Assembly (NCBI GenBank): GCA_016871895.1
Contig: VHBO01000001.1
Location: 192,674 to 256,673 of the forward strand
Direction of reading: 5' to 3'
Length of the DNA stretch: 64,000 nt
Source: Gemmatimonadota bacterium
GTDB lineage: Bacteria; Gemmatimonadota; Gemmatimonadetes; Gemmatimonadales; Gemmatimonadaceae
The notes under the pieces were generated by a model, which worked only from the letters and a program-made list of their open reading frames with translations, was not told the origin of the DNA and made no database searches. Made by a program: the position numbers and the translations under genes. This document shows positions 1-63,402 of the stretch, piece by piece; position 1 is the first letter of the stretch; every line of letters begins with the position of its first letter.

Positions 1-1173
1 CTCCACCGGGGCGTCGTCCTCCTCCGGCTCGAGGGAACAGGTGGAGTAGATCAGGAGCCCGCCGGGCGCGACCGCCTCGGCGGCGCCCCGCAGGATGGCG
101 CGCTGTGTCGCCGACATCACCGCGAGATCGGAGGGCTTCAGGCGCCAGCGCGCGTCAGGGTGGCGACGGAAGGTCCCGGTCCCCGTGCAGGGCGCGTCGA
201 CGAGCACCGCGTCGAAGGTGCCGAGGGTCCCCGCCTCGCGCGCGTCGCAGACCACGGGGGTGACGTGGTCCAGATGGAGGCGCGCGATCGTCGCCTCGAG
301 CCGCCCGAGGCGCGCCTCGGAAGCATCGGCCGCGATCACCTCGCCCGCGGTGCGCGCGAGCTCCACCGCCTTGCCGCCAGGGGCCGCGCAGAGGTCGGCG
401 ACCCGCGCACCGGCGGGGATCGCCGCGTAGCGCGTCACGAGTGTCGCCGCGGGATCCTGCACGAGGCAACGCCCCTCACGGAAGGCGGTGAGCGCGGTGA
501 GCGCAGTGCCGCTGGGGAGCCGCACGCCGTCGTCGACGAGCGGCGCAGGCTCGGTCGTGACGCCCTCGGCGGCGCACATCGCCGCGAGCTCGGCCGCCGT
601 GCAATCCCAAGGGCGGAGATGGATCGGCGCCTCGGTGTTGTTCGCCTCGAGCAGCGCCTGCGTCGCCTCCGCCCCCCAGCGCGCCACCCACCGCGCGACG
701 AGCCAGCGCGGGTGCGAGTACGTCACCGCCAACGCCTCGACCGGGTCCGCGGGGAGCGGCGGCGCGGGATGGTCGCGTTCGCGATCGAGGCGGCGGAGGA
801 CCGCGTTCACGAGGCCGGCCGCGCCGGGCCCGTGCCGGCGCTTCGCGAGCTCGACGGTCTGCGCGATCGCGGCGTAGGCGGGGACGCTGTCCATCTGGAA
901 GAGCTGTGCCGCACCGAGGCGGAGGAGATCGGCCACGTCGGCGTCGATCCGTGCGAAGCCTCCCGTCACGCAGGGCGCGATCCGATGATCGAGGGCGCCG
1001 CGTCGACGCAGCATCGTCCAGACGAGCTCCTGCACCCAGCGGCGGTCGCGCGGCTCGAGCGCGGCGGTGCGGCGGTCGAAGGCGGCGTCGAGGAGCACAC
1101 CCGACCGAAGGTCGGCGAGCAGATCCGCGGCAGCGCGCCGGGCGTCGGTGATGGTGGCGACGGCGGGAGACAT
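1..1173 (-). CDS. rsmB: 16S rRNA m5C967 methyltransferase RsmB/Sun (partial, runs off the window start)
   Basis: Not in the ORF track. Hand translation from ATG 1173 gives MSPAVATITDARRAAADLL...ELVWTMLRR...LLRLGAAQLFQMDSVPAYAAIAQTVELAK...GLVNAVLRR (NusB-like domain), later DLCAAPGGKA and VLVDAPCTGTGTFRRHPDARW. Lies downstream of def-fmt. Confidence 0.93.
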   Translation of the reverse strand, partial: MSPAVATITDARRAAADLLADLRSGVLLDAAFDRRTAALEPRDRRWVQELVWTMLRRRGALDHRIAPCVTGGFARIDADVADLLRLGAAQLFQMDSVPAYAAIAQTVELAKRRHGPGAAGLVNAVLRRLDRERDHPAPPLPADPVEALAVTYSHPRWLVARWVARWGAEATQALLEANNTEAPIHLRPWDCTAAELAAMCAAEGVTTEPAPLVDDGVRLPSGTALTALTAFREGRCLVQDPAATLVTRYAAIPAGARVADLCAAPGGKAVELARTAGEVIAADASEARLGRLEATIARLHLDHVTPVVCDAREAGTLGTFDAVLVDAPCTGTGTFRRHPDARWRLKPSDLAVMSATQRAILRGAAEAVAPGGLLIYSTCSLEPEEDDAPVE

Positions 1174-1228
1174 CACGGGAAAGATACCCGGCCGGAGCGG
1201 CGTGCCCGGCCACCGCGTCGGTGCGGCG

Positions 1229-2170
1229 TCAGGCGTCCGGCAGCGCCCAACGATCCCCGACCGCGATGCCGCGGCCCTGTGCCCAATCAATGGTGCTGAG
1301 GCGCCGCCGACCCGCCGGGTGCACCGACTCGATCGCGACCGCCCCGCCACCGCAGGCGACGACCATCCCCATCTCCCCCACCTCGAGGACCTCGCCGGCG
1401 TCCCCTCGGCGGTCCAGGAGCGGGCGCGCCCCGAAGCAGCGCACCTCGGCGTCCCGCACGATGCCCCACGCCCCGGGCTTCGGGTCGTACGCCTGGATCG
1501 CGCGCGCCACCACGGCGGCGGGGCGTGTCCAATCGAGGCGCGCCGTGGTGCGGTCGATCTTCGGTGCGTAGGTGCTCGCGGCGTCGTCCTGCGGGGTCGC
1601 GGTGAGCTCGCCGAGCTCGAGGAGTGTGACCGCCTCGACGACCGCCTCCGCGCCGAGCTCCGAGAGGCGTTCGGTCAACTCACCCCCCGTCTCTCCCGGC
1701 GCGATCGGCGTCGTGAGGGTGAGCAGCATTGGGCCCGCGTCGAGGGCGCGGACCATCTGCATGATCGTCACCCCGGTCTCGGCGTCGCCGGCTAGGAGCG
1801 CGGCCTGGATCGGTGCCGCCCCACGCCACCGCGGGAGGAGTGAGGCGTGGATGTTCACCGTGCCGCGCGGCGGGAGGGCGATCACATCCTCGCGGAGGAG
1901 ATGCCCATACGCCACCACCACGGAGAGGTCGGGCGCGAGCGCGCGGAGCTGTTCGAGGAACTCGTCGCCGCGTGGACGGTCGGGCTGGAGAATGGGGATC
2001 CCCTCCTCGAGTGCCACCTGCTTCACGGGGGAGGGAACGAGCGTCGAGCGCGAGCGGCCCTGCGGGCGGTCAGGCTGCGTGACGACGCCGACGACCTCGT
2101 GTCCCTCACCGATGAGCGCGCGCAACGGCGGCGTCGCGAACTCCGGGGTCCCCCAGAAGAGGATGCGCAC
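1229..2170 (-). CDS. fmt: Methionyl-tRNA formyltransferase
   Basis: MRILFWGTPEFA, VVTQPDRPQGR, NIHASLLPRWRGAAPIQ; follows def. Confidence 0.97.
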   Translation of the reverse strand: MRILFWGTPEFATPPLRALIGEGHEVVGVVTQPDRPQGRSRSTLVPSPVKQVALEEGIPILQPDRPRGDEFLEQLRALAPDLSVVVAYGHLLREDVIALPPRGTVNIHASLLPRWRGAAPIQAALLAGDAETGVTIMQMVRALDAGPMLLTLTTPIAPGETGGELTERLSELGAEAVVEAVTLLELGELTATPQDDAASTYAPKIDRTTARLDWTRPAAVVARAIQAYDPKPGAWGIVRDAEVRCFGARPLLDRRGDAGEVLEVGEMGMVVACGGGAVAIESVHPAGRRRLSTIDWAQGRGIAVGDRWALPDA

Positions 2171-2740
2171 TCAGATCCGCTGTTCGGTGGCGTGCTCGGT
2201 GGTCGGCTCCGGCTCCGTCCCACCGGGGCCGAAGATGCGCACGAGATTCGGATAGCGCCCCTTCTCCTTCTCCCAGGTCGCAAGCACGCTCCGGCGCTTG
2301 AGGAAGCTCAGATGGTCGATGAAGAGCTTCCCGTGGAGATGGTCGATCTCGTGCTGGAGGCAGACGCCGAGCAGCCCGTCGGCGGTGATCTCGATCGGCG
2401 CGCCGTGTTCGTTTATCGCGCGGACCGTCACCTGCGCCGAGCGGTCGACGGTGCCGAAGGTGTTGGGGATGGAGAGACACCCCTCCTCCCACTTGATCCG
2501 CCCGTCGCGGGCGACGATCTCGGGGTTGAAGAGCGTCAGCAGCGTCTCCTCGACCTCGACCACGCAGAGTCGCTCGCGCCGTCCCACTTGCGGGGCGGCG
2601 AGCCCGACACCATCGGCCACGTGCATCGTCTCGAGCATATCCGCGGCGAGCTGCCGCAACTCGTCCGTCACGACCTCGACGGGCACCGTCTCCTCGCGGA
2701 GGATCGGGGCGCCGAGGACCGTGATCGGGAGGACGGCCAT
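2171..2740 (-). CDS. def: Peptide deformylase
   Basis: GVGLAAPQVG, EGCLSIP, QHEIDHLHG motifs. Confidence 0.97.
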   Translation of the reverse strand: MAVLPITVLGAPILREETVPVEVVTDELRQLAADMLETMHVADGVGLAAPQVGRRERLCVVEVEETLLTLFNPEIVARDGRIKWEEGCLSIPNTFGTVDRSAQVTVRAINEHGAPIEITADGLLGVCLQHEIDHLHGKLFIDHLSFLKRRSVLATWEKEKGRYPNLVRIFGPGGTEPEPTTEHATEQRI

Positions 2741-3087: not shown

Positions 3088-3130
3088 GGTCTCGGAGGTG
3101 GAGGGACGTCGGGAAATCTAGCGGCGCCGC

Positions 3131-4200: not shown

Positions 4201-5232
4201 TCAGAACAGGTCGGCCTGCGGGGCGGGCGGCGTCGCCGGGGGCGGATAGCCGAGGTGGCGGTACGCCTGCGCGGTGGCAACGCGGCCGCGCGGGGTGCGC
4301 TGCAGGAAGCCGTGCTGCACGAGGAAGGGCTCGTACACCTCTTCGAGGGTATCGGGCTCCTCACCGACGGCAGCGGCGATCGTCGTCACCCCGACGGGCC
4401 CGCCGTCGAACTTCTCGATGATCGCGCGGAGCACGCGCGTATCCATCTCGTCGAGCCCGAACTCATCGACGTCGAGCATCGCGAGGGCATCGCGCGCGAC
4501 ATCGCGGGAGATGTGTCCGCCCGCCCGCACCTGCGCGAAGTCTCGGACACGCCGGAGCAGCCGGTTCGCCACGCGCGGGGTCCCACGCGCGCGCCGCGCA
4601 ATCTCGTGCGCGCCCGCCGCGTCGATCCCCGCGCCGAGCACGGCGGCGGTGCGATGCACGATCTCCTCGACCTCCGCCGGCGGGTAGTAGTTCAGCCGCA
4701 GCTCGATCCCGAAGCGCGCGCGGAGCGGCGCGGTGAGCATCCCGAGCCGCGTGGTGGCGCCGAGGAGCGTGAAGCGCTCGATCGGCATCGTGATCGTCTG
4801 CGCCTTCGGGCCCTCGGAGAGGCGGATGTCGATGCGCGCATCCTCCATCGCGGGATAGAGGAACTCGTCAATCACCGGCCGCAGGCGATGGATCTCGTCG
4901 ATGAAGAGGATGTCGCCGGCGCGCAGGTTGGTCAGCGTCCCGACGAGGTCCCCGGGCTTCTCGAGCGCAGGCCCCGAGGTGGTGTGGAGGTTCACCCCGA
5001 GCTCGCGGGCGATCAGCTCGGCGAGCGTCGTCTTCCCGAGGCCCGGCGGGCCGAAGAGGAGCGCGTGGTCGAGGGGCTCATTCCGCGCGAGCGCCGCGTC
5101 AAGGTAGATGCGGAGCGCTTCCTTCACCTTTCCCTGCCCGATGAACTCCGCGAGCCGCTGCGGGCGCAACGAGAGCTCCACCACCGACTCGTCGGCGAGG
5201 GACTCCGGGGTGGTGATCTCAGGGCGGCTCAT
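4201..5232 (-). CDS. ruvB: Holliday junction branch migration helicase RuvB
   Basis: [47 protein letters not shown]. Confidence 0.98.
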
Positions 5233-5242
5233 CGGAGAGAAT

Positions 5243-5848
5243 CTAGCCGAGGGCGGCGAGCGACCGGCGGATCAGGTCGGCGGTCGATTCACCCGCCGGC
5301 GCGCCTTCGAGGGCACGCCGGACCGCGCGCTCCGCATCGGACGCGCCATAGCCGAGCGCGACGAGCGCGCGGACCGCGTCGGCGCCCGGACCGCCGCCGC
5401 TCGCGCTCCCCGCGCCGGAGACCGGACCGGCGGGGAGGTCGCCGCCCTCGAGCTTGTCGCGCAGCTCGAGCACGAGGCGCTCCGCCAGCTTCTTTCCCAC
5501 CCGCGGTACCTGCGTCAGGGTCGCGAGGTCCCCCTCACGCACCGCGCGCACCAGACGCTCCGCCGTCAACGTCGAGAGGAGGTTCATCGCGAGCGCCGGG
5601 CCCACGCCCGTCGTCCCCATCAGGCGCTGGAAGAGCCGACGCTCCTCGGCCGTCGCGAAGCCGTAGAGCAACCACGCGTCGTCGCGCACGACGAGCGCGG
5701 TGTGTAGCGCGATCTCCCCGCCGGGGCGCGGCAGCCGCTCGAGGACGGCGAGCGGAACGAGGATCTCGTAGGCGATCCCGCCGGCGGTGAGCACCTCGAT
5801 GCGGTCGATCGCGTGCGCGACAAGGGTGCCGTGGACGCGGGCGATCAT
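5243..5848 (-). CDS. ruvA: Holliday junction DNA-binding protein RuvA
   Basis: [45 protein letters not shown]. Confidence 0.96.
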
Positions 5849-10097: not shown

Positions 10098-10176
10098 CCC
10101 GAGAAAGTGGTGCGCGGCTCCGCACCGGGGGAAGAGGGTGATGGATGGCCCTGACGGGCGGGGCTATCTTCCGCCG

Positions 10177-11994
10177 ATGCACGTCTATCGACGGCTCCTG
10201 CCGTTCCTCCGTCCGCATCGCGGGCGTCTGGCCGGCAACGTCGTGCTGAACATCGTCGCGGCCGCGCTCGACGGCATCGCGTTCACCCTGCTCATCCCCT
10301 TCCTCAACACCCTCTTCGGTCTGCCGACGCAGATCGCCGGGGGGATGGGATGGCTCACCCGGCTCCAGACGGGGCTCATCGGCCCGCTCCTCGACCCGGC
10401 CGACCCGATGGGATCGCTGCGTAGCGTCATCCTCGTGCTGATCGGGATGGTCGCGCTCAAGAACCTCTTCCTCTGGGGCGGCGGGCAGTTCGGCGCCTCG
10501 CTCCAGGAATACATCACACGCGATCTACGGCACGCGGTCTTCACGCACCTGCAACGGCTCCCGCTCCCCTGGTTCAGCCGGATGCGCACCGGGCAAGTCC
10601 TCGCCCGCGTGCTGACCGACACCGAACAGACGAAGGCGGTCCTCGCCGAGGTGGCGACGCGCTCCGTGCAGAACGTGGCGGCGATCGTCGTGACCCTCGT
10701 CATCCTCTTCCGGATGTCGCCGTGGTTGACCCTCGCCGCGCTCGTGATCGCGCCGGCGCTGATGGCACTCCTCCAGCCGCTGCTGCGCCGGCTCCGCACC
10801 GGCCACCGGCGACTGCGGCACGAGTACGGGGAGATGACGAGCGTGCTCCAGGAGGTGGTGAGCGGGATCCGACTCGTGAAGTCGTTCCGCGGCGAGCGCT
10901 ACGAGGAGGGCCGCTTCCTCGGCGCCTCGGCCGGCTATTCGCGCGGGATGACGCGGATGCAGCGCCTCGCCCTCCTCGCCGGCCCGCTGACAGAAGTCCT
11001 CGGCACCTTCATCGCGATGGGGGTCCTCTGGCTCGGCGCGCGCGAGGTACTCGAGACGCGGACGATGGACGGCGGCATCCTCATCACCTTCATGGTGCTG
11101 GTGATGCGGCTTCTCCAGCCGATCAAGCAGCTCTCGCAGGCGCCGACCACCGCGCAGCAGTCGTTCGCCGCCGCAGAGCGTCTCTTTGAGATCCTCGACC
11201 ATCCCACGGAGACGGCGACCGACCGCGGGCATCGCCCCGTCGCGTCGTTCACCGACGCGATCGCCTTCGAGGGGGTCGGCTTCGCGTATGGGGAGACGCC
11301 GGTCCTCGCCGATATCACGTTCACGGCGCGCCGCGGCGAGGTGGTGGCGCTCGTCGGGGCGAGTGGGGCGGGGAAGAGCACCCTCGTCGACCTCCTCCCG
11401 CGGTTCATCGAGCCGACCGCTGGCCGGGTCACGCTCGACGGCGTCGACACGCGGGAGATCCCGCTCGCGACGCTCCGGGCCCTCACCGGCATCGTGAGCC
11501 AGGACACCGTCCTCTTCCACGACACGGTCCGCGCGAACATCGCGTATGGCGCCCCCGACCGGTACACCGCCGCTCAGGTCGAGGCGGCGGCGCGCGCGGC
11601 GAACGCACACGACTTCATCCAAGCGCTGCCGCAGGGGTACGACACGATCCTCGGCGAGCGCGGCACGCTCCTCTCGGGCGGCCAGCGGCAGCGCCTCGCC
11701 ATCGCGCGTGCCCTCCTCACCGATCCGCCGATCCTGATCCTCGACGAGGCCACGTCGGCGCTCGACACCGAGAGCGAGCGGCTCGTGCAGGAGGCCATCG
11801 ACCGGCTCCTCGCGGGACGGACCGTCTTCGTGATCGCGCACCGCCTCTCGACCGTGGTTCACGCCGCGCAGATCCTCGTCCTCGATCGCGGCCGGATCGT
11901 CGAGCGCGGCACGCACGACGCGCTGCTCGCGCGCGACGGCGCGTACGCGCGCCTCCACGCGATGCAGCAGCCCGGGGCGCCGCGTGGCGGCTGA
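10177..11994 (+). CDS. msbA: MsbA-like ABC transporter (TMD + NBD)
   Basis: Start reassigned to MHVYRRLLPFL; multiple TM helices; GASGAGKST, LSGGQRQR, ILDEATSALD; next to a lipid A acyltransferase. Confidence 0.85.
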   Translation: MHVYRRLLPFLRPHRGRLAGNVVLNIVAAALDGIAFTLLIPFLNTLFGLPTQIAGGMGWLTRLQTGLIGPLLDPADPMGSLRSVILVLIGMVALKNLFLWGGGQFGASLQEYITRDLRHAVFTHLQRLPLPWFSRMRTGQVLARVLTDTEQTKAVLAEVATRSVQNVAAIVVTLVILFRMSPWLTLAALVIAPALMALLQPLLRRLRTGHRRLRHEYGEMTSVLQEVVSGIRLVKSFRGERYEEGRFLGASAGYSRGMTRMQRLALLAGPLTEVLGTFIAMGVLWLGAREVLETRTMDGGILITFMVLVMRLLQPIKQLSQAPTTAQQSFAAAERLFEILDHPTETATDRGHRPVASFTDAIAFEGVGFAYGETPVLADITFTARRGEVVALVGASGAGKSTLVDLLPRFIEPTAGRVTLDGVDTREIPLATLRALTGIVSQDTVLFHDTVRANIAYGAPDRYTAAQVEAAARAANAHDFIQALPQGYDTILGERGTLLSGGQRQRLAIARALLTDPPILILDEATSALDTESERLVQEAIDRLLAGRTVFVIAHRLSTVVHAAQILVLDRGRIVERGTHDALLARDGAYARLHAMQQPGAPRGG

Positions 11995-14085: not shown

Positions 14086-14105
14086 CGCCCCGTTATCTTT
14101 CGTCG

Positions 14106-15800
14106 GTGTCCGCTCCCGACATCCCCGCCGCCTCGCCGGCGCTCGCCTCCTCCCTCGACGCGCTGATCGCGCGGCGTCGCACCTTCGCGATCATCTCGCA
14201 CCCCGACGCGGGGAAGACGACGCTCACCGAGAAGCTCCTCCTGTACGGTGGTGCGATCCATCAGGCGGGCGCGGTGAAGGCGCGGAAATCACAGCGGCAC
14301 GCGACCTCCGACTGGATGGCGCTTGAGCAGGAGCGCGGCATCTCGGTCACCTCGTCGGTGCTGCAGTTCGAGTACCTCGGCTATCAGGTCAACCTCCTCG
14401 ACACCCCGGGTCATCAGGACTTCGGCGAGGACACCTACCGCACGCTCGTCGCGGCCGATAGCGCCGTGATGCTGCTCGACAATCGCAAGGGCGTCGAGGA
14501 ACGGACGCGTCAGCTCTTCGACGTCTGCCGTCGCCGACGGATGCCGATCTTCACCGTCGTCAATAAGTGCGACCGCGTCGGTGAGGACCCGCTCAAGCTC
14601 GTGAGCGACCTCGAGGCAGAGCTCGGGATCACCGCGGTCGCGGCGCACTGGCCGATCCATCAGGACACGGCGGAGCAGGGGAGCGTCTTCGTCGGCGTGT
14701 ACGATCGCCGGCGCACGCGGGCCCACCTCTTCGAGCGTGGGACGCATCATGGGGCGCAGCGCGTCGAGACGCGCGTCGTCGATCTCGACGGTCCCGCCGA
14801 TCCGCGCCTCGTCGCGGCGCTCGGGGGTGACGAGACCGCGCAGGTGGCGGTCGACAAGCTCGCGCACGATGTGGAGCTCCTCGACCTCGCGGGTCACGAG
14901 TTCAGCCCGGCGGCGATCATCGCGGGGGAGCAGACCCCGGTGTACTTCGCGTCGGCGATCACGAATTTCGGCGTCGAGCCCTTCCTCGAGAACTTCCTTC
15001 CCCTCGCCCCCTCGCCGGTCGCGCGGGAGAGCAGCGCTGGCCCGGTCGCGCCGGGGCTCATCGCCTTCACCGGCTTCGTATTCAAGGTGCAGGCGAATAT
15101 GGATCCGCGGCACCGCGATCGGATCGCCTTCGTGCGTGTCTGTTCCGGGCGCTACGCCGCGGGCCTCGAGGTCTCGCACGTCCGCACGGGGAAGAGCTTC
15201 AAGCTCGCCCCACCGCAGCAGTTCCTCGGCCGTGAGCGCGCGTTCGCGGAGGAGGCGCTGCCGGGCGATGTGGTGGGGGTGCACGACCGCGGGTCGTTGC
15301 GTATCGGGGACACTCTCGCGAGCGCCGAGGCCCCGCGTGATGCCGCGGGACGGCTCCTCGAGTATGTGGGGATCCCGCGCTTCGCCCCGGAGCACTTCGC
15401 CCGGATCCTCTCGAAGGATCCCCTCCGCCGGAAGGCGCTCGACAAGGGGCTGCGTGAGCTCACCGAGGAGGGCGCCGCGCAGGTCTTCTTCGCCGAGTCG
15501 GTCCTCGGGCCCGTCCCGATCGTCGGAGCCGTGGGGCTCCTGCAGTTCGACGTGATGCTGCATCGGCTCGAGCACGAGTACGGTGCGCCCTGCACGCTCG
15601 AGCGGGTGCCGTTCCGGTACCCCCGGTGGGTGACCGGTCCTCAGGCGGCGATTGAGCGGATGGGGGAGGCGCAGGACCTCTCGCTCCTGTACGACGCGAA
15701 GGAGCATCCGGTGCTCCTCTTCCGCGACGAATGGCGGCTCCGGTGGGCGCTGGAGCGCGCCGAGACGCTCGGTCTCGCCTTCCACGAGGCGGCGCCCTGA
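14106..15800 (+). CDS. prfC: Peptide chain release factor 3
   Basis: RRTFAIISHPDAGKTTLTEK, DTPGHQDF, FKVQANMDPRHRDRIAF, VGAVGLLQFDV. Confidence 0.97.
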   Translation: MSAPDIPAASPALASSLDALIARRRTFAIISHPDAGKTTLTEKLLLYGGAIHQAGAVKARKSQRHATSDWMALEQERGISVTSSVLQFEYLGYQVNLLDTPGHQDFGEDTYRTLVAADSAVMLLDNRKGVEERTRQLFDVCRRRRMPIFTVVNKCDRVGEDPLKLVSDLEAELGITAVAAHWPIHQDTAEQGSVFVGVYDRRRTRAHLFERGTHHGAQRVETRVVDLDGPADPRLVAALGGDETAQVAVDKLAHDVELLDLAGHEFSPAAIIAGEQTPVYFASAITNFGVEPFLENFLPLAPSPVARESSAGPVAPGLIAFTGFVFKVQANMDPRHRDRIAFVRVCSGRYAAGLEVSHVRTGKSFKLAPPQQFLGRERAFAEEALPGDVVGVHDRGSLRIGDTLASAEAPRDAAGRLLEYVGIPRFAPEHFARILSKDPLRRKALDKGLRELTEEGAAQVFFAESVLGPVPIVGAVGLLQFDVMLHRLEHEYGAPCTLERVPFRYPRWVTGPQAAIERMGEAQDLSLLYDAKEHPVLLFRDEWRLRWALERAETLGLAFHEAAP

Positions 15801-23859: not shown

Positions 23860-25145
23860 TCCACCACCGCGACTTCCCGCGCGCCCTTCCGCACCAGCAA
23901 CCACCGGCCGCGCACCGCATCGCTGACCGCGACATCGGTCGCGTCGGCCGCGCACTTCACGCCGTTCACCGCCACGCCGCCCTGTTGCACGAGCTTCCGC
24001 GCCGCCGACCGCGAGAGCGCGAACGCCGTCTCGAGCAGGGCGACGAGATCGATCCGGCCATCGGCCGGCGTCAGCCGCACGCTCGGCATCTCCACGGCGA
24101 GCGTCGTGAAGACCGCATCGTCGAGCGCGTGGGCGTCGGCCTTCTTGTCGAACACGGTGGCGGAGACCCGTTCGGCCACCGCCGTCGCGGCCGCACCGTG
24201 GACGAGGGTCGTGACCTCGGCGGCGAGGCGACGCTGCGCGCGCCGCTCGTGGGGCGCGGCGGCGTGCGCCGTCTCCAGCGCCTCGATCGTCGCGCGGTCG
24301 AGCAGTGTGAAGGAGCGCAGGAGCCGACCGACGTCGGCGTCCTCCGTGTTGATCCAGAACTGATAGAAGCGGTACGGACTCGTCCGCGCGGCATCGAGCC
24401 AGACGGCACCCGCCTCCGTCTTTCCGAACTTCCGGCCCTGCGCATCGGTCAGCAGGGGGAAGGTGAGGCCGTGAACGGCGCCACGAGCGGCGCGGCGCAC
24501 CAGCTCCGTCCCCGCCGTGATGTTCCCCCACTGGTCGCTCCCGCCGATCTGCAGGGTGACGCCGTCCGCCTGGAAGAGCCGGAGGAAGTCGTAGGCCTGC
24601 AGCAGCATATACGAGAATTCGGTATAGGAGATCCCCGTCTCGAGCCGCGACTGCACCGAGTCCTTCTGCATCATCCAGTTGATGCTGAAGTGCTTCCCCG
24701 TGTCGCGCAGGAAGGGGATGAGGCCGAGCGCGCCGAGCCAGTCGCGGTTGTCGCGGATGTGGACGTGGGGGAGTGCGCTATCGCCCAGGGCGTTGGCCAT
24801 CACCGACCGGATCTGTCGGCCGATGGCCTCCGCGTTCGCGGCGACCTCCTCGGCGGGGCGGATCGGCCGCTCTTCGGACTTCCCGCTCGGGTCACCGATG
24901 AGCGCGGTGCCGCCCCCAACGAGCGCGACCGCTTCGTGGCCGGCGCGGACGAGGCGTACGAGCCCGAGCAGCGGGAGGAGGTTGCCGACGTGCAGGCTGT
25001 CGGCCGTGGGGTCGAAGCCGCAGTACCCGCGCACGACGCCCGCCGCGAGCGCCTCCGCGCAGCCCTCCGTCTGCTGGAAGAGGAGGCCGCGCCACGCGAG
25101 CTCGTCGAGCAGCGGGAGGGAATCGGGGGCGGAGGACGGCGCCAT
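23850..25145 (-). CDS. tyrS: Tyrosine--tRNA ligase
   Basis: YCGFDPTADSLHVGN (HIGH), QIGGSDQWGNI, KFGKT (KMSKS), C-terminal S4-like domain. Confidence 0.98.
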   Translation of the reverse strand: MAPSSAPDSLPLLDELAWRGLLFQQTEGCAEALAAGVVRGYCGFDPTADSLHVGNLLPLLGLVRLVRAGHEAVALVGGGTALIGDPSGKSEERPIRPAEEVAANAEAIGRQIRSVMANALGDSALPHVHIRDNRDWLGALGLIPFLRDTGKHFSINWMMQKDSVQSRLETGISYTEFSYMLLQAYDFLRLFQADGVTLQIGGSDQWGNITAGTELVRRAARGAVHGLTFPLLTDAQGRKFGKTEAGAVWLDAARTSPYRFYQFWINTEDADVGRLLRSFTLLDRATIEALETAHAAAPHERRAQRRLAAEVTTLVHGAAATAVAERVSATVFDKKADAHALDDAVFTTLAVEMPSVRLTPADGRIDLVALLETAFALSRSAARKLVQQGGVAVNGVKCAADATDVAVSDAVRGRWLLVRKGAREVAVVEIG

Positions 25146-25282
25146 GGGCGGAAAGCTATCCGTCTCCTCGGGGGACGGGGACTCCCGGCGCGGTTGACAG
25201 CGGTCCGCACGCGCGGCGGGCGCGGCGCACGGCGCCCACGCGTTGCCCGCGCCCCCGGGCGCACCCTAGCTTCCGGGACGCG

Positions 25283-31827: not shown

Positions 31828-33051
31828 TCACTCCGGGAGGCGTGGGAGGCGCAGCGTGATCGTCGTCCCCACGCCGGGCGTGCTCGTCGCCTCGACCGCG
31901 CCGCGATGCGCCAAGATGGTTTGCTTCACGATCGCGAGGCCGAGCCCGGTGCCTCCCGCGCGACGGGTCACATAGGGCTCCCAGATCCGTGGCAGCTCCG
32001 TCGCCGGGATGCCGCAGCCGTCGTCCGCGACATCGATCCGCACCTCGGTCGCCATCTCGGCAATGGTGATGCGCACCGTCCCGTGACCACCGGTGGCGTG
32101 TGTGGCGTTGAGGAGCAGGTTCGCGATCGCGCGCTGCAGCGCTTCGTGCTGTCCGTCGACGACGAGCGTCTCGGGGCCCACGTAGCGGAAGGTGACCGCC
32201 GGCGGCAGGGTGTGGCGCGCCGCGGAACGGACGAGGGCGACGAGGTCGACCGGCGCCACGGGGGCGTCAGGGAGACGGCCGAACTGCGCGAAGCTCGTCG
32301 CCATCGCCTCAAGCCGCGCCGATTCGGCATCTAGGACGTCGATCGCCTCGCGCTGCTCCGGCGTCGCCTGTCGACGAAGGGTCGCCACGGCGTAGCGGAT
32401 GGGGGTGAGCGGATTCTTCAGCTCGTGTGCGACCTGGCGCGCCGATTCCCGGAAGGCGCCGAGCCGCTCGGCCTCGACCGTCGCCCGGCGGCCCGCCTCG
32501 AGCTCTGCGGCCATCCGTCGCATCCCGTCACGCAGCACCCCGAACTCCGGGGCACCGCGCACCGTGACCTCGGCGTCCGATGGGAGCGGGGCGTCGCGCG
32601 CGATCCGGTCGGTCCATCCCACGAGCTCGTCGAGCGGACGTGAGAGTTGGCGACTCAGGTGGCCCGCGACGCGCCAGGTGACGATACCGAGCACCACGAG
32701 CAGCAACAGCCCGACGATGAGGACCGCGCCGATCACCCGCTGACCGAGGAACGCCGTCCGACGGGCCTGCACCGCGGACGCGTCGAGCAAGGCGGCGTGC
32801 GCGTCGAGCGCTGCGGTCGCGTCGGGGGTGCCCGGCTGCGTGCGAGCGGCCTCGATGGCGGCATCTCCCGTGCGCACCACCGCCTCCCACGCGCCGATCC
32901 CGCCGACGATCGGCAGGACACGCGCTGCCATCCCGCTCCACGCCAGTGTGAGCAGGAGCGCGGGGACGAGAGCGAGCATCGTCAGGACGACGAGGAGCCG
33001 GGTCCTGAAAGGGAGCGGACGTCGTGGCGCCCAGGTGGGTCGAAGTGACAC
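31828..33051 (-). CDS. Membrane sensor histidine kinase (HAMP, NtrY-like H-box)
   Basis: Two TM helices, HAMP, ARQVAHELKNPLTPI, DDGCGI, GTGLGLAIV. Confidence 0.92.
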   Translation of the reverse strand: MSLRPTWAPRRPLPFRTRLLVVLTMLALVPALLLTLAWSGMAARVLPIVGGIGAWEAVVRTGDAAIEAARTQPGTPDATAALDAHAALLDASAVQARRTAFLGQRVIGAVLIVGLLLLVVLGIVTWRVAGHLSRQLSRPLDELVGWTDRIARDAPLPSDAEVTVRGAPEFGVLRDGMRRMAAELEAGRRATVEAERLGAFRESARQVAHELKNPLTPIRYAVATLRRQATPEQREAIDVLDAESARLEAMATSFAQFGRLPDAPVAPVDLVALVRSAARHTLPPAVTFRYVGPETLVVDGQHEALQRAIANLLLNATHATGGHGTVRITIAEMATEVRIDVADDGCGIPATELPRIWEPYVTRRAGGTGLGLAIVKQTILAHRGAVEATSTPGVGTTITLRLPRLPE

Positions 33052-33336
33052 ACCCGTAAGCTACGGTCCGTTCCGTACCGGTGCATCGGGTCGAAGTGGC
33101 GGCCCACCTGTCATTTACGTTGCCTCTCACTAGGTTTCCTCGCAGAGGTTGCCGCGGACGGCGGCGTGGCGGTCCCCCGGATCGGGGGGCCCGACGCCTG
33201 GCCCGTGAGCGGTGCCTCGAGCGGGTGCGCGGCTGCGCCAGCGGCATCTTCCGGGACCTGTGGGTCCGGACGAGCGGCTGCGCGCGATCGCCCCCGCGCC
33301 TCATCACTCCCATGGCGCGAGGCGCCAAGGAACAGC

Positions 33337-43027: not shown

Positions 43028-44197
43028 TCAGTCCCCCGCCTCGAGGAGCGCGCCCTTCAGATAGCCCGTCTCCGGGATCGTGAGCACCTCGGGGTGGTCG
43101 AGCGGCTGGCCGGTGAGCGCGCGCAGCACGATGCGCCGGCCGCTGTCCGCCGCCGCCGCCTCGAGCATCGCGAGGAAGTCGTGGCGTCGCACGTGGTAGC
43201 TGCAGCTCGCGGTGTAGAGACACCCGCCCGGCGCGAGGAGGCGCATCGCGCGGAGGTTCAGGTCCTTGTAGCCCCGCAACGCCCCGGCGATCGAGGCCCG
43301 ATTCTTGGCGAAGGCCGGCGGGTCGAGCACGATCGTCTCGTAGCGCGCGCCGCGGCGTTCCTCGGCCCGGAGGAAGTCGAAGACGTCGGCCTCGACGGCG
43401 GTGATGTTCGTCCGTGCGTTCCGTGCGGCGTTCTCGGCGACCCGCTCCAACGCGGCGGCGGAGACATCGACCGCGGTCACCGTCGCGGCACGGGCGGCGA
43501 GGTGCAGCGCGAACGAGCCGTGATAGCTGAACAGGTCGAGCGCCGCGCCGCGGGCGATCCCGCCGACGAGCCGGCGCGCCTCGCGCTGGTCGAGGAAGGC
43601 GCCCGTCTTCTGCCCGGTGTGCGGGGCTGCGAGGTATCGGACGCCGTGTTCGCGGACCTCGATCGTCTCCGGTACGGCGCCGACGAGTGGTTCCACGACG
43701 CGCGCGAGCCCCTCGCGCGCCCGCACGCTCGCGTCGTTCCGCGCGAGGATCCCGTCGATGCCGGGGAGCGCGCGGAGCGCGTCGACGATCTCGGCGCGGT
43801 GCGCCTCAAGGCCCGCGGAGAGGAGCTGCACGACGAGCCAGCGGTCGAACCGGTCCACCACGAGCGAGGGGAGACCGTCCCCTTCGCCGTGCACGAGTCG
43901 GCACGCGGTCGTCTCGCCGTCAAGCAGCCCATCCCGCCGCGCGACCGCCGCGCCGATCTGTGTGCGCCACCAGTCCACGTCGAGCCGCCCGAGGGTGTCG
44001 CGGCTCACGAAGCGCAGTGCGATCTCCGAGGCGGGGCTCCAGAGTGCGGTGCCGAGCGGCCGCCCCTGCGGATCACGCACGGCGACCGCGCCGGCCGGGG
44101 CATCGGAGGGCGTGATCAGGTCGGACCGGAAGATCCAGGGATGCCCGCCCTGCCAGCGGCGGCTCCCTCGGGTCGAGATGACGGCGGAGGATGACAT
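43028..44197 (-). CDS. PUA-domain class I SAM-dependent rRNA methyltransferase (RlmI family)
   Basis: GHPWIFRSD, HGEGDGLPSLVVDRF, GQKTGAFLDQRE, LDPPAFAK, ETGYLK. Confidence 0.9.
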   Translation of the reverse strand: MSSSAVISTRGSRRWQGGHPWIFRSDLITPSDAPAGAVAVRDPQGRPLGTALWSPASEIALRFVSRDTLGRLDVDWWRTQIGAAVARRDGLLDGETTACRLVHGEGDGLPSLVVDRFDRWLVVQLLSAGLEAHRAEIVDALRALPGIDGILARNDASVRAREGLARVVEPLVGAVPETIEVREHGVRYLAAPHTGQKTGAFLDQREARRLVGGIARGAALDLFSYHGSFALHLAARAATVTAVDVSAAALERVAENAARNARTNITAVEADVFDFLRAEERRGARYETIVLDPPAFAKNRASIAGALRGYKDLNLRAMRLLAPGGCLYTASCSYHVRRHDFLAMLEAAAADSGRRIVLRALTGQPLDHPEVLTIPETGYLKGALLEAGD

Positions 44198-44278
44198 CCT
44201 CCAACTTAGCCCGTCTCGGCGCCAACTCGGTGCCATCTCGGTAGACGAACCCGGCGTCCGGCGTCATCTTCCGCCGAC

Positions 44279-55515: not shown

Positions 55516-56658
55516 TCAACGCCAGCGGAATGGCGTGAAATCGAACGCCGGTGTCGCACCGAGTGCGAGATCTGCCAGCACCTCGCCGATCGCGCTTGCG
55601 AACTTGAACCCATGGCCGGAGCAGGGGGACGCGACCCAGACCCGATCGGTGTCAGGGGCTAGGTCGATGAGGAAGTGCTCGTCGGGCGTATTCGAGTAAT
55701 GGCAGGTGGCGGTTCCGCGGAGGATGCCGTCCGCCCACGGCAGGTGGGCCGCAAGGTGCGCGCGCATCACCGAAACCTCCGCCGCGGTCGCCGGCGCGCG
55801 GACGTCGCCGGCGCGGGTCGTGTGCGTCGAGGTCCCGGGCGCGCGATGATGCCACGCGACCTTGACGCCGTCGCCGACGTCAGGGAAGCCGTACCAGATC
55901 GTCCCGGGTGCGATCTCTGAGAGGAAGACCGGGAACCGCTCCGGCGCGAATGCGGTCGCCTCCGCCCGCGGAGCGAACCAGAACTGGACCTGCCGTTCCA
56001 CCGTCAGGGCTGGGACGAGGGCTGGGATCAGCTCGGGTGCGCGGCCGCCGGCGCTGACGATGAGTTGGGCGGCACGCAGCGTGCGCCGAGTCGTGCGCAC
56101 CGTGACGTGATCGGGATGTGCCGTCCATCCCGTGACGGTCTCGCCGAGATGAAGGGTAGCCCCCGCTTGGGTCGCGAGCCGAAGCGCGGTCGCGATGCAA
56201 CGTTCTGGATCGAGGATACCCGCACGCGGCTCGAGGATCCCGATCCAGTCGTCCGCAACGCGATGGGCGGGGAAAGCGCGTCGCAACGCATCGGCGTTGA
56301 ACTGCTCGTGAGGCAGGCGGTGCCGCATCGCGCTCTCGAGCGCACCGGTGACTAGCCGAGAGGTCGGGGCACCGAGGCAGAGCCCGCCGGTGACACGGAG
56401 CAGGGACGTACCGGCGTCCCGTTCGAGGGTCTGCCACGCAGCGTAGGCGCGCTGCACGAGAGGGACGTACAACGGATCCTCGAAGTACGCCTCGCGGATG
56501 ATCCGCGAGCGGCCGTGGCTCGAGCCGAGGTCGTGCGGGGGGTGGCCGCGGTCGATCCCGATGACGTGGACGCCGCGGCGGGCGAGTTCGAGGAGGGTCA
56601 GACTCCCCGTTGCCCCGAGGCCGACGATGAGCACTTCGGGGCTTGCGTCCGTGACCAT
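55516..56658 (-). CDS. Monomeric sarcosine oxidase / N-methyl-L-tryptophan oxidase family FAD enzyme
   Basis: Start reassigned to MVTDASPEVLIVGLGATG; GSSHGRSRIIR, YSNTPDEHFLID, CSGHGFKF. Confidence 0.92.
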   Translation of the reverse strand: MVTDASPEVLIVGLGATGSLTLLELARRGVHVIGIDRGHPPHDLGSSHGRSRIIREAYFEDPLYVPLVQRAYAAWQTLERDAGTSLLRVTGGLCLGAPTSRLVTGALESAMRHRLPHEQFNADALRRAFPAHRVADDWIGILEPRAGILDPERCIATALRLATQAGATLHLGETVTGWTAHPDHVTVRTTRRTLRAAQLIVSAGGRAPELIPALVPALTVERQVQFWFAPRAEATAFAPERFPVFLSEIAPGTIWYGFPDVGDGVKVAWHHRAPGTSTHTTRAGDVRAPATAAEVSVMRAHLAAHLPWADGILRGTATCHYSNTPDEHFLIDLAPDTDRVWVASPCSGHGFKFASAIGEVLADLALGATPAFDFTPFRWR

Positions 56659-56891
56659 TCGCCGATCGTAGCACCGAACGCTGCTGAACTCAATCACGGC
56701 TGGTGCAGCGCTGGCGTGTTGGGGTGGATTCCTGTATCGTGGTCGTGTTTCGGACTCACGCCCAATTCGGGGTACTTTGCTATGCATCTCGCACAGCGCG
56801 GCGGGCCAGTGACGGTGGGTCGGGTCTGCTTCGATGGCGCGCGCACCGAGGCGGTACGGACGGCGTTGGCCTCGTCAGAGCCCGGGGTCGG

Positions 56892-60674: not shown

Positions 60675-60678
60675 CGGA

Positions 60679-61170
60679 TCAGAACTGCAGGCGGAGCGTG
60701 ATCGGGATGATGCGGGTCGAGGTGTTCGTCAGCTCGCCGTTGTCACCCTTTAGCAGCACCACGCGCGCGTCGGCGGAGAGCGCCCCGAAGAGGTGCAGCA
60801 TGATCCCGCCGTGCACGCCGATGCTCGCCGGCTCCGCCGTGCCATCGAAGCGGAGATTGTACTTGCCCATGCCGGCGTACAGGTTCACCCGCTCCTTCTT
60901 GCTGCCGAGGATCGCCGACGCGGCGTAGTTGAGGCTCGTCACCTTGGTGCCGCCTTCGTCGGGGAAGGCGTAGTACGAGCCGTCCACGGCGATGTCGAAG
61001 ATCGGCAGGATGCCGGTGCGCAGGCCGACGCCGCCACCGGTGCCGGTGTACGTCGAGCCACCATCGTAGGTCCAGGTCTGCTGCCCCCCGAAGATGGCGA
61101 GCTGCGCCTGAGCGGCGGCCGGGGCGAGGAACAGGGCGACGAGGGCCAGCAGCGAGAACGAGCGCTTCAC
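60679..61170 (-). CDS. Small outer-membrane beta-barrel protein
   Basis: Signal peptide from GTG 61170; amphipathic strands; ends IIPITLRLQF. Confidence 0.75.
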   Translation of the reverse strand: MKRSFSLLALVALFLAPAAAQAQLAIFGGQQTWTYDGGSTYTGTGGGVGLRTGILPIFDIAVDGSYYAFPDEGGTKVTSLNYAASAILGSKKERVNLYAGMGKYNLRFDGTAEPASIGVHGGIMLHLFGALSADARVVLLKGDNGELTNTSTRIIPITLRLQF

Positions 61171-61308
61171 GGGACTCTCTCCGGAAAGTATGATCGGGGC
61201 GCATCGCACCCCGCACAGAGCATACGACTGGCCGGGGTCGTCGGCAACGTGAGCCAGGTCACATCGTGCTTCTCGAGGGGACCGGCAGTCGCGTGACGCC
61301 GCCCGGCG

Positions 61309-61872
61309 TCAGAGCGCGAGGCGCAGGAAGATCGGGATCATCCGCACCCGGACCTTCGCATCGCTCCCGCTGTCATCGTAGCCGGCGTACTGGGCGTTCA
61401 CGAATCGCACCTCGAGGGCCATCCGCGCCGCGATGCGATACCCGACGCCGAGATGATAGCCGACGGATCGGTCCGACCCCCGCTGGGCGAGCCCCTCGTT
61501 GTCAGCGAAGTCATAGACCCACCAGTACGTCCCGGCCCCACCCAACAGCTGGAGGCGCGACCCGGGCCGCTGCACGATCATCGTCGCACTGAGCGCCACG
61601 TACGATTGGTCGAGCTGCGACTCGTAGCCGCTGTCCTTCACGCGGACCGGCGGGAAGCGGTACACGGCGCCGTCGAACGCGAGGTCGAATGGCGCGTTCT
61701 CCCGCGCGAGACGGGCGGAGAGGCCGCCGCCGGCGGAGAGTCCGGCGATCGACTCGACGCCGAGGGCGCCGGCGAATGCCGACCAGCGGAGATGCGTCTC
61801 GGCAGGGAGCTGAGCGCCCACGCGTCCGCCGAGAAGCGCGAGCAGGAGGGTCGCGAGGCCGATGCGATTCAC
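61309..61872 (-). CDS. Small outer-membrane beta-barrel protein (probable paralog of the preceding gene)
   Basis: GTG 61872 overlaps the caspase stop; signal peptide; GYHLGVGY; ends MIPIFLRLAL. Confidence 0.7.
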   Translation of the reverse strand: MNRIGLATLLLALLGGRVGAQLPAETHLRWSAFAGALGVESIAGLSAGGGLSARLARENAPFDLAFDGAVYRFPPVRVKDSGYESQLDQSYVALSATMIVQRPGSRLQLLGGAGTYWWVYDFADNEGLAQRGSDRSVGYHLGVGYRIAARMALEVRFVNAQYAGYDDSGSDAKVRVRMIPIFLRLAL

Positions 61873-63260
61873 GGGACGAGGCGGTAGGAGGGATCGCCCC
61901 AAACCTGCGGCGACTGGTCGCGGCCGTGGAGGCGACGCGCTTCATAGGGAAGACCGCGCACGGGATCGGTCAGCCACTGTCGCAGCTCGCCCACGGAGAG
62001 GCTGCCGTCACGGTCGCCGTCGGCGGCCCCCTGCAGCCCACGGAGGAAGAGATAGGTCAGGAGGCCGTGCCGCTGTTCCGGCTGCCAGCTCGCGAGCTGC
62101 TGTCCCTCGGCGGCGGTGATGATCGTCGCACCGCCGCCGGCGGCGAAGCGCACGGACGGATCGGTGACCCGGATACCAATTGGTGAGGCCTGTGCGATGA
62201 GCATCTCGCCACTGCCGGTAGCACCGGAGAAGCAGGCATCGAGCACCACGGTGACGTGACGCGCTCCGAGCGCGGCGAGGTTGTCGTAGAGGGCATCCAC
62301 CGGCAGGGCGGTGAGCGAGAGTCGGTCGGCGTCGCCATCCACCGGCATCAGATACGCGCGATTCGCCGTGGGGTCGGGCGCGCCGTGCCCCGAGTAGAAG
62401 ACGAAGACCTCGCTGATCCCGGGCTTCACCAGGTCACGGAGCCGTCCGGTCGGCGCCTCGCGGTCGCCGAAGAGCCCCTTGAGGTCCGAGAGCGTGGCGT
62501 CCTCCACCATCAGGATGTTGCCGGGCCGGACGCCGAGGACCCGCTCGGCGTGGAGCCGCATCGCAGCGGCATCGTTCGCCGCGTAGGCCACGGCCGGGGC
62601 GCGGCGGTAGGTGCGGTTGCCGATGATCACCGCGATGGCATCCGGACGGTCGGCGCGTGAGCGCGGGACGCCACGCATCAGGTCGGTGGGGCCGAGCGCG
62701 ACCGGCGGCGGCGCGATCGCCGGGCTCGTGCCCACCGCACCGGCGGCGACGAGTGGGGCGGGGGCGCCGGCGATGGTGAGGCCCAGGTCGATAGGTGCGG
62801 TGGTCGGGTACCGGCGTGCTGCGAACGCGACGCGGACCGGGACGACCCCCTCCTCGGTCATCATCCGCTCGATGGCGACGATCCGGAACGGCACGGTGGC
62901 GGTGGTGCCGGGCGCGAGGATGCCGACCTTGATGCGCCGACGGCGCTCGAAGGTGGTGCCGAGCGCGGAGATGTACCGGACGCGGGCGGCGTCCCCCGTC
63001 TGGACGTCCACGGTCACTGCGGCGAGGGGTCGCGCGGAGACGTTGCGGATCTGCAGTCGGATCTCGACCGTCTCATCCGGTGGGATTGTCGCCCCACCGG
63101 CACCGTTGAGCACACGGACGCCGGTGATGACGATGGGGTCGGCGGGGTCGCTTGCCCATTGGGCCGCGAGCGGGACCCGCGCGAGCAGGAGGAGGACGCC
63201 CGAGAGCACGGCGCGCAAGGAAGCGCGGAGACCGCGGGGCGACGTGGTACGGGTCAGCAT
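61869..63260 (-). CDS. Exported caspase-family (peptidase C14) protein with N-terminal Ig/CARDB-like domain
   Basis: Start reassigned to MLTRTT (63260); AVIIGNRTY, FYSGHG (His), LDACFSG (Cys), HGLLTY; EF-hand-like DGDRDGSLSVGEL. Confidence 0.88.
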   Translation of the reverse strand: MLTRTTSPRGLRASLRAVLSGVLLLLARVPLAAQWASDPADPIVITGVRVLNGAGGATIPPDETVEIRLQIRNVSARPLAAVTVDVQTGDAARVRYISALGTTFERRRRIKVGILAPGTTATVPFRIVAIERMMTEEGVVPVRVAFAARRYPTTAPIDLGLTIAGAPAPLVAAGAVGTSPAIAPPPVALGPTDLMRGVPRSRADRPDAIAVIIGNRTYRRAPAVAYAANDAAAMRLHAERVLGVRPGNILMVEDATLSDLKGLFGDREAPTGRLRDLVKPGISEVFVFYSGHGAPDPTANRAYLMPVDGDADRLSLTALPVDALYDNLAALGARHVTVVLDACFSGATGSGEMLIAQASPIGIRVTDPSVRFAAGGGATIITAAEGQQLASWQPEQRHGLLTYLFLRGLQGAADGDRDGSLSVGELRQWLTDPVRGLPYEARRLHGRDQSPQVWGDPSYRLVP

Positions 63261-63402
63261 ACGAGGAGGGTACGGCGCGCGCCGCAGGGCAGCAACGGGT
63301 CGCACCCCCGCCACCGCACCCCTGCGCGCGCGACCTCGGTGTCCGGCGCGTGCCATCCTCGCGGCTCGGTCGTCTCAATGGTATGCGCACCTCGAGGAGA
63401 CG

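What the first reader, a model, noticed from the sequence alone, without database searches (positions are those of the whole stretch)
1173..63272. Recurrent TANNNT box 5-7 nt before start codons: widespread leaderless mRNAs
Seen, with spacer to the start codon: rsmB TATCTT 7 nt (1181-86), ruvB TAGATT 7 (5240-45; TAG is also the ruvA stop), msbA TATCTT 6 (10165-70), prfC TATCTT 6 (14094-99), tyrS TAGCTT 7 (25153-58), sensor kinase TAGCTT 6 (33058-63), rlmI-like TAAGTT 5 (44203-08), FAD oxidase TGcTACGAT 6 (56665-73), caspase TACCCT 6 (63267-72). All but the rlmI-like gene lack an SD; there the spacer itself is GGAGG, too close to function. Established: this geometry marks leaderless transcripts in Actinobacteria and Deinococcus. 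Inference: leaderless initiation is common in this lineage, includes internal promoters within operons, and fixes several start codons that the ORF track overextends.
Basis: partly seen in the sequence, partly recalled or inferred. Interest (0 to 1): 0.65.

Follow-up and report, generated by a model that had tools for sequence, protein, structure and literature searches.

The report
Leaderless-type promoters in a Gemmatimonadota genome
In this uncultured Gemmatimonadota bacterium about one gene in ten (about a fifth of genes whose upstream neighbour points the other way) has a promoter -10 box 6-7 bases before its start codon. Their mRNAs therefore probably start at the start codon, a mode already known from mycobacteria and Deinococcus and here extended to another lineage.

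Summary
All nine TANNNT boxes lie where stated, 5-7 nt before an ATG or GTG. Across the 2.28-Mb genome, TANNNT 5-8 nt before start codons chosen blind to the motif occurs 148 times, against 24 ± 4.5 in shuffles, with a sharp peak at spacer 6.

The boxes behave as promoters, not ribosome sites:
- They precede 18.5% of genes with a divergent upstream neighbour but 3% of tightly packed same-strand genes.
- They replace the SD (5% against 27% SD-like).
- They favour ATG (78% against 58%).
- They use the same hexamers (TAGCTT, TATCTT, TAGATT) that dominate other upstream regions.

Six-frame homology supports the proposed starts for ruvB, rlmI, msbA, the FAD oxidase, the kinase and, less cleanly, rsmB; the tyrS box is kept in 20 of 24 related genomes. 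Internal promoters are supported: 12 of 16 same-strand gene pairs with a 9-nt gap embed the upstream stop codon in a TARNNT box.

The signal is strong in this genus, patchy in its order and absent from other classes of the phylum. The mechanism is known (GeneMarkS-2 group C; Deinococcus -10 motif), so this is a new lineage for a known kind, of modest interest.

The parts
1171..1186 (-). rsmB: -10 box TATCTT (1186-1181), 7-nt spacer, ATG at 1173. It lies 55 nt after the end of the upstream same-strand gene, so it is an internal promoter.
   Evidence: Sequence. The NusB domain starts at residue 10. Homology to the long ORF begins at residues 53-66 in 9 of 16 genera; the proposed start is residue 60.
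5230..5245 (-). ruvB: -10 box TAGATT (5245-5240) whose TAG is the ruvA stop codon, 7-nt spacer, ATG at 5232.
   Evidence: Sequence. Homology starts at residues 1-3 in 28 of 30 genomes of the order. The nearest relative keeps a stop-embedded TAGATT, and 6 of 28 relatives have TANNNT at spacer 5-8.
10165..10179 (+). msbA-like ABC exporter: TATCTT, 6-nt spacer, ATG at 10177. The longest ORF (from 9769) overextends by 136 codons.
   Evidence: Sequence. Six-frame matches to the long ORF begin at residues 127-139 in 12 of 16 genera; the proposed start is residue 137.
14094..14108 (+). prfC (RF3): TATCTT, 6-nt spacer, GTG at 14106. It lies 20 nt after the upstream gene's stop.
   Evidence: Sequence. 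The motif-blind start coincides. 6 of 23 Gemmatimonadota orthologues have TANNNT at spacer 5-8.
25143..25158 (-). tyrS: TAGCTT, 7-nt spacer, ATG at 25145. It is divergent from the gene starting at 25283.
   Evidence: Sequence. The motif-blind start coincides. 20 of 24 genomes across the family, order and class have TANNNT 5-10 nt (mostly 7-8) before the homologous start codon.
33049..33063 (-). Sensor histidine kinase: TAGCTT, 6-nt spacer, GTG at 33051. First gene of its unit, with a divergent neighbour.
   Evidence: Sequence. Homology begins at residues 3-13 of the protein read from this GTG in 14 genera.
44195..44208 (-). rlmI-like methyltransferase: TAAGTT, 5-nt spacer (GGAGG), ATG at 44197.
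   Evidence: Sequence. The PUA domain starts at residue 7. Homology begins at residues 2-7 in 29 genomes.
56656..56673 (-). FAD-dependent oxidoreductase (DAO): extended -10 TGcTACGAT, 6-nt spacer, ATG at 56658. The longest ORF (from 56787) overextends by 43 codons.
   Evidence: Sequence. The DAO domain starts at residue 9. Matches to the long ORF begin at residues 37-51 in 10 of 11 matches; the proposed start is residue 44.
63258..63272 (-). Caspase-domain protein: TACCCT, 6-nt spacer, ATG at 63260. This is the weakest box (C at position 5) and the start is unverified.
   Evidence: Sequence. No homologue at E <= 1e-30 in 16 other genera, so the start could not be tested.

Best explanation
The TANNNT boxes are the -10 elements of the housekeeping sigma-70-type promoters of this Gemmatimonadota bacterium (local consensus TAnnTT). 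They sit so that RNA polymerase starts transcription on, or 1-2 nt before, the A/G of the start codon. The resulting mRNAs have no 5' leader and no Shine-Dalgarno site, and would be translated from a 5'-terminal AUG/GUG as in mycobacteria and Deinococcus.

About 8-13% of all genes use this layout, or roughly 17-26% of genes whose upstream neighbour is divergent. About 17 promoters lie inside same-strand gene strings with the upstream gene's TAG/TAA stop forming the first half of the -10 box.

Shown: the motif, its spacing, its distribution and conservation, and the correctness of most start codons. Inferred: the transcription start sites and the mode of translation.
For: - **Positional peak:** spacer 6 > 7, 148 genes against 24.0 ± 4.5 in shuffles. 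A count that makes no start choice gives the same peak.
- **Promoter-like distribution:** 18.5% of genes with a divergent upstream neighbour against 3.0% of genes less than 20 nt behind a same-strand gene. With all candidate starts allowed the figures are 29% and 5%.
- **Translation signals:** SD-like motifs occur in 5% of boxed genes against 27% of the others. ATG is used in 78% against 58%, and TTG is depleted.
- **Upstream promoter features:** G is enriched two bases upstream of the hexamer, and TTG lies 16-19 nt upstream in 9.5% against 3.4%.
- **Same box elsewhere:** TAGCTT, TATCTT and TAGATT also dominate upstream regions of genes without an adjacent box. T at position 5 is 42% there against a 16% base frequency.
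- **Conservation:** the tyrS box is kept in 20 of 24 genomes while the flanks vary.
- **Start codons:** homology reaches the proposed starts.
- **Literature:** the geometry matches published leaderless promoters, with the -10 box 6-8 nt from the start in M. tuberculosis (PMC6028130) and 6-7 bp in D. radiodurans, where it was validated experimentally (PMC12340547).
Against:
- The MAG has no 16S gene, so its anti-SD could not be examined.
- Spacers of 8-10 in relatives (tyrS in family f2) would give 1-3-nt leaders rather than strictly none.
- Five of the nine cited starts differ from my motif-blind call by 8-25 codons and rest on homology. One of them, the caspase, is untested.
- The share of genes is well below that in Deinococcus (about a third).
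Confidence: 0.8

Rival explanations
1. The box acts on the RNA, not the DNA. It would be a non-SD, A/U-containing ribosome-recruitment or reinitiation signal within a leadered or polycistronic mRNA, like the non-SD motifs of Bacteroidota (GeneMarkS-2 group B).
For: It occupies the position where an SD would sit. The 9-nt-gap class with stop-embedded boxes could in principle be a termination-reinitiation signal. No TSS data exclude it.
Against: An RBS-type signal should precede operon-internal genes as often as first genes, yet here it is six times commoner before genes with a divergent upstream neighbour. The invariant positions are exactly those of a -10 element, and the same hexamers occur at variable distances in other upstream regions. 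A weak -35 TTG and an upstream G accompany it. SD motifs still serve other genes in the genome.
Confidence: 0.07
2. The boxes are ordinary promoters but the start codons are misplaced. The true starts would lie further downstream, so the mRNAs have normal leaders.
For: My motif-blind caller put five of the nine starts elsewhere. High-GC ORFs offer many alternative GTG/ATG codons.
Against: Six-frame homology in other genera begins within a few residues of the proposed starts for ruvB (1-3), rlmI (2-7), kinase (3-13), tyrS, msbA and the FAD oxidase. Pfam domains begin at residues 7-22. A fixed 6-7-nt spacing to an in-frame start codon would not arise if the real starts were elsewhere.
Confidence: 0.05
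3. It is a compositional or gene-calling artefact. In a 70% GC genome the rare A/T-containing hexamers pile up just outside coding regions, and start callers snap to them.
For: Intergenic DNA is slightly A/T-richer than coding DNA. My start caller uses coding potential, which drops at A/T-rich hexamers.
Against: The peak is 1-2 nt wide at spacer 6-7, not a shoulder. Shuffling the upstream 40 nt gives 24 against 148. Equally GC-rich relatives analysed the same way show little enrichment, and a lower-GC genome of another class shows none (G014, G052, G021). The reversed-pattern control gives 78 against 21.
Confidence: 0.02

Closest known systems
Bacterial genomes rich in leaderless transcripts (GeneMarkS-2 'group C': Mycobacterium, Corynebacterium, Streptomyces, Deinococcus-Thermus; PMC6028130)
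   Same: A Pribnow-type box 6-8 nt from the start of first genes in operons. SD sites serve the other genes. There is little or no -35 element. Starts are often mis-annotated by SD-based callers.
   Different: The lineage is Gemmatimonadota, and I found no paper in the library linking it to leaderless expression. The share is lower (about 17-26% of genes with a divergent upstream neighbour) than the 25-50% of operons quoted for group C. Within the phylum the trait is patchy: strong in this genus and some genera of a sister family, and near background in most of its own family and in other classes.
The '-10 motif adjacent to ORFs' of Deinococcus radiodurans and Thermus (PMC12340547; de Groot et al. 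2014, cited there)
   Same: TANNNT 6-7 bp upstream of the ORF, shown there by mutation to act as the promoter -10 region for leaderless mRNAs. GGAG is the second motif class upstream of ORFs.
   Different: There about one third of genes carry it and the commonest form is TACACT. Here it is about one gene in ten and the consensus is TAnnTT (TAGCTT, TAGATT, TATCTT). Nothing has been tested experimentally here.
Bacteroidota housekeeping promoters (-7 element TAnnTTTG; recalled from my own knowledge, not tested against a paper here)
   Same: T at the fifth and sixth positions of the box (TAnnTT).
   Different: The two bases after the box are C/T then C, not TG. SD sites are in use, unlike in Bacteroidota. 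This is a resemblance only.

Membership tests
Leaderless genes with an ORF-adjacent -10 box (GeneMarkS-2 group C type) | A TANNNT-like motif sharply localised 6-8 nt upstream of start codons | tested here: met
   Spacer profile 15/87/35/11 at spacers 5-8 against about 3 background; z = 27 against shuffles.
Leaderless genes with an ORF-adjacent -10 box (GeneMarkS-2 group C type) | The motif precedes first genes of transcription units rather than all genes | tested here: met
   18.5% of genes with a divergent neighbour against 3.0% of genes less than 20 nt behind a same-strand gene.
Leaderless genes with an ORF-adjacent -10 box (GeneMarkS-2 group C type) | These genes lack an SD while other genes keep it | tested here: met
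   SD-like motif in 5% against 27%. GGAG peaks at spacers 5-9 genome-wide.
Leaderless genes with an ORF-adjacent -10 box (GeneMarkS-2 group C type) | The transcription start coincides with the start codon (5' UTR of 0 to a few nt) | not testable with these tools
No TSS study of Gemmatimonas was found.
Leaderless genes with an ORF-adjacent -10 box (GeneMarkS-2 group C type) | A substantial share of operons is leaderless (25-50% in published group C genomes) | tested here: inconclusive
   17% (motif-blind starts) to 26% (any candidate start, control subtracted) of genes with a divergent neighbour. This is at the lower edge. GeneMarkS-2 itself was not run.
Leaderless genes with an ORF-adjacent -10 box (GeneMarkS-2 group C type) | The start codon is correctly placed (the protein N-terminus is at that codon) | tested here: met
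   Homology reaches the proposed start for ruvB, rlmI, kinase, tyrS, msbA and the FAD oxidase, and mostly for rsmB. The caspase start is untestable.
Bacteroidota-type promoter (TAnnTTTG) | TTTG at positions 5-8 of the box | tested here: not met
   Position 5 is T in 68% and position 6 is T, but the next two bases are C/T (43/33%) and C (56%).

The most novel reading that the evidence does not exclude
Within one order of Gemmatimonadota, leaderless expression would be a patchy trait that rose or fell genus by genus. Reversed-pattern ratios run from about 1 to 25 among sister genera. In this genus it would have spread into operons through a recurrent design: the upstream gene's TAG/TAA stop is the first half of a TAnnTT -10 box, with a fixed 9-nt intercistronic gap, so that downstream cistrons such as ruvB are made both from the polycistronic mRNA and from their own leaderless mRNA.
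Probability: 0.45. Interest if true: 0.45.

Novelty: new member of a known kind. Interest (0 to 1): 0.33.

Why it matters
**Annotation.** In 104 of 227 candidate genes the box-adjacent start lies downstream of the longest ORF. SD-based or longest-ORF start calls will therefore mis-set N-termini in these MAGs; here msbA is overextended by 136 codons and the FAD oxidase by 43.

**Biology.** The finding adds part of Gemmatimonadota to the bacterial lineages that make substantial use of leaderless mRNAs. The trait varies strongly between sister genera, which gives a natural comparison for asking what drives gain or loss of leaderless initiation.

**Limits.** The mechanism itself is not new, and without transcript data the result stays a well-supported prediction.

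Tried and rejected
- **16S rRNA:** a search of the own genome found none, so the anti-SD could not be read.
- **Syntenic regions:** Later genome-search runs gave alignments but no loci.
- **Literature:** the GeneMarkS-2 supplement is not held, and the D. radiodurans paper's supplements do not mention Gemmatimonadota. Whether those surveys already classed this phylum is unknown.
- **Caspase start:** no homologues in the family.
- **Rfam:** only one tRNA in the window and no leader RNAs at these sites.
- **Chance or artefact:** rejected by the shuffle, spacer, reversed-pattern and other-genome controls.
- **Bacteroidota-type TAnnTTTG promoter:** rejected because the downstream TG is absent.
Full report
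**What the window is**

The window is C1:192674-256673 of a 2.28-Mb assembly in 129 contigs, with 70% GC. It is 96% complete by the tool's figure. RF3, RuvB and TyrS find their best relatives in Gemmatimonadota MAGs labelled Gemmatimonadaceae, Gemmatimonadales or Longimicrobiales, from lakes, groundwater and soil. It is therefore an uncultured Gemmatimonadota bacterium.

**The observation**

All nine boxes are present with the stated spacers and start codons. None of the nine has a usable SD. The GGAGG of the rlmI-like gene abuts the ATG directly.

**Is it more than chance?**

I built a simple gene caller: a 3-periodic fourth-order Markov model trained on long ORFs, with starts chosen only by coding potential, so blind to any upstream motif. 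It called 1781 genes covering 89% of the genome.
- TANNNT occurs 15, 87, 35 and 11 times at spacers 5, 6, 7 and 8 before these starts, against about 3 per spacer further away.
- In 500 shuffles of each upstream 40 nt the expected number of genes with a box at spacer 5-8 is 24.0 ± 4.5. The observed number is 148.
- A count that makes no start choice gives the same narrow peak. It takes every ATG/GTG/TTG that opens at least 100 coding-like codons and finds 130 at spacer 6 and 78 at spacer 7, against 30-40. Starts in non-coding frames show no peak.
- If any candidate start of a gene may be used, 227 genes have such a box, against 33-58 with displaced spacers.

The excess is therefore about 8% (strict) to 10-13% (permissive) of genes.

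**Promoter or ribosome signal?**

Several independent properties point to a promoter.
- **Where the box sits.** It precedes 18.5% of genes whose upstream neighbour is divergent, 5-10% of genes behind a same-strand gap of at least 20 nt, and 3.0% of genes less than 20 nt behind a same-strand gene. With permissive starts the extremes are 29% and 5%.
- **SD use.** SD-like motifs occur in 5% of boxed genes against 27% of the rest. GGAG still peaks at spacers 5-9 genome-wide, so the organism uses SD for other genes.
- **Start codons.** Boxed starts are 78% ATG and 20% GTG, against 58% and 38% overall. This fits a purine +1 and the AUG preference of leaderless translation.
- **Box sequence.** Aligned on the box, the consensus is TAnnTT, with T at position 5 in 68%. 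Top forms are TAGCTT, TAGATT and TATCTT. G is enriched two bases upstream, and there is a faint -35 (T 23 nt upstream; TTG 16-19 nt upstream in 9.5% against 3.4%).
- **Same box elsewhere.** The same three hexamers dominate the upstream regions of genes without an adjacent box, at variable distance. T at position 5 is 42% there against a 16% base frequency. The box is thus the organism's general -10 element, simply placed next to the ORF.

A spacer of 6 puts the A of ATG where +1 falls after a -10 hexamer. This matches the 6-8 nt reported for M. tuberculosis (PMC6028130) and the 6-7 bp shown experimentally for D. radiodurans (PMC12340547).

**The nine start codons**

Four of the nine (ruvB, prfC, tyrS, rlmI) coincide with my motif-blind starts. 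For the others I used six-frame homology in other genera.

| Gene | Where homology begins | Proposed start |
|---|---|---|
| ruvB | residues 1-3 in 28 of 30 genomes | residue 1 |
| rlmI-like | residues 2-7 | residue 1 |
| kinase | residues 3-13 of the protein read from the boxed GTG | residue 1 |
| msbA (long ORF) | residues 127-139 in 12 of 16 genera | residue 137 |
| FAD oxidase (long ORF) | residues 37-51 in 10 of 11 matches | residue 44 |
| rsmB (long ORF) | residues 53-66 in 9 of 16; further upstream in the rest | residue 60 |
| caspase | no homologue in 16 genera | untested |

The claim that the box fixes overextended ORFs therefore holds for msbA, the FAD oxidase and probably rsmB. Genome-wide, the boxed start is downstream of the longest ORF start in 104 of 227 genes.

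**Conservation**

- **tyrS:** 20 of 24 genomes spanning the genus, family, order and one further family of the class have TANNNT 5-10 nt (mostly 7-8) before the start codon that aligns with the N-terminus. The hexamers vary (TAGCTT, TAGATT, TACGAT, TACCAT, TATCTT) and the flanks are not conserved.
- **prfC:** 6 of 23 orthologues have such a box.
- **ruvB:** 6 of 28 have one, all among the closest relatives. The nearest relative keeps the stop-embedded TAGATT.

**Internal promoters**

Before tightly packed same-strand genes there are 19 boxes against 1.7 expected, and 15 of the 19 have the diagnostic T at position 5, against 18% genome-wide. Most share one design.
- Of the 16 same-strand pairs separated by exactly 9 nt, 13 have a TAG/TAA stop, although TGA makes up 79% of stops.
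- In 12 of the 16, the stop plus the next three bases reads TARNNT, so the stop codon is the first half of a box at spacer 6. Three more cases occur at a 10-nt gap.
- ruvA-ruvB belongs to this class of 17 stop-embedded boxes at 8-11-nt gaps (it is one of the 10-nt cases).
- One or two such cases also appear in 400-kb samples of the two same-genus genomes.

**How far the trait reaches**

I ran the same pipeline on 400 kb from each of seven relatives.

| Genome | Relationship | Excess of boxed genes |
|---|---|---|
| G000 | own | 8.1% |
| G027 | same genus | 7.1% |
| G007 | same genus | 4.8% |
| G052 | same family, other genus | 2.0% |
| G043 | same family, other genus | 1.0% |
| G051 | same order, family f2 | 3.5% |
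| G014 | same order, family f3 | 2.5% |
| G021 | other class | none |

I also counted TANNTT-N6-ATG against the reversed pattern in 81 genomes of the phylum.
- Own genome 78 against 21; a congener 92 against 33.
- About 1.0-1.5 in most genera of the own family.
- Strongly raised in some genera of the sister family f2: 76 against 3, 105 against 16, 61 against 12, 104 against 34.
- At or below 1.1 in the other orders and classes.

The trait is thus real but patchy, and confined to one order. This control is crude because the background depends on GC.

**What is known**

Leaderless transcription from an ORF-adjacent -10 box is well established. GeneMarkS-2 models it and assigns 1028 of 4769 bacterial genomes to 'group C', mostly Actinobacteria and Deinococcus-Thermus (PMC6028130). 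The box was validated by mutagenesis in D. radiodurans, and that study also surveyed other phyla (PMC12340547).

No paper in the library links leaderless expression to Gemmatimonadota. One paper only reports low SD use (22%) for the class Gemmatimonadetes. No TSS study of Gemmatimonas was found. An earlier, unchecked note of this scan describes five leaderless-type promoters in another Gemmatimonadales genome, which agrees.

**Limits**

- The MAG has no 16S gene.
- My gene caller misses short genes and mis-sets some starts, so the percentages are approximate.

**Verdict**

This is a known mechanism in a lineage where I found no report of it, with two small extras: the TAnnTT consensus and the stop-embedded boxes at 9-nt gaps. 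Interest is modest.

Noticed in passing
genome-wide; in the window e.g. 5240-5245 (ruvA stop / ruvB box): Of 16 same-strand gene pairs separated by exactly 9 nt, 13 end in TAG/TAA (genome average 21%) and 12 read TARNNT. The upstream stop codon is therefore the first half of a -10-like box 6 nt before the next start.
   Followed up: partly
genome-wide: The -10 consensus is TAnnTT (TAGCTT, TAGATT, TATCTT). T at position 5 is 68-76% in ORF-adjacent boxes and 42% in other upstream regions, against a 16% base frequency. This recalls the first six bases of the Bacteroidota TAnnTTTG element, but the following bases are C/T-C, not TG.
   Followed up: partly
window 25267-25285 (+), gene starting at 25283, divergent from tyrS: TAGCTT lies 10 nt before the ATG of the 696-aa gene. 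This may be a very short (about 3-4 nt) leader rather than a leaderless start.
   Followed up: no
G108, G037, G049, G044 and most of family f1: The count of TANNTT-N6-ATG against its reversed control differs up to 25-fold between sister genera of one order (76/3, 105/16 against about 1.0). Leaderless-type promoters seem to be gained or lost at genus level.
   Followed up: partly
window 14106-15800 (prfC): The eight genomes sampled from the two sister families of the order have no RF3 orthologue. Their best matches are about 30% identical and look like EF-G-type paralogues. The genus has a clear RF3 at 79-89% identity.
   Followed up: no
window 61869-63260 (-): The caspase-domain protein (Peptidase_C14 at residues 209-414) has no homologue at E <= 1e-30 in 16 other genera of the family.
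   Followed up: no
whole genome G000: No 16S rRNA gene is present in the assembly. The anti-SD of this organism therefore cannot be read from the MAG.
   Followed up: yes
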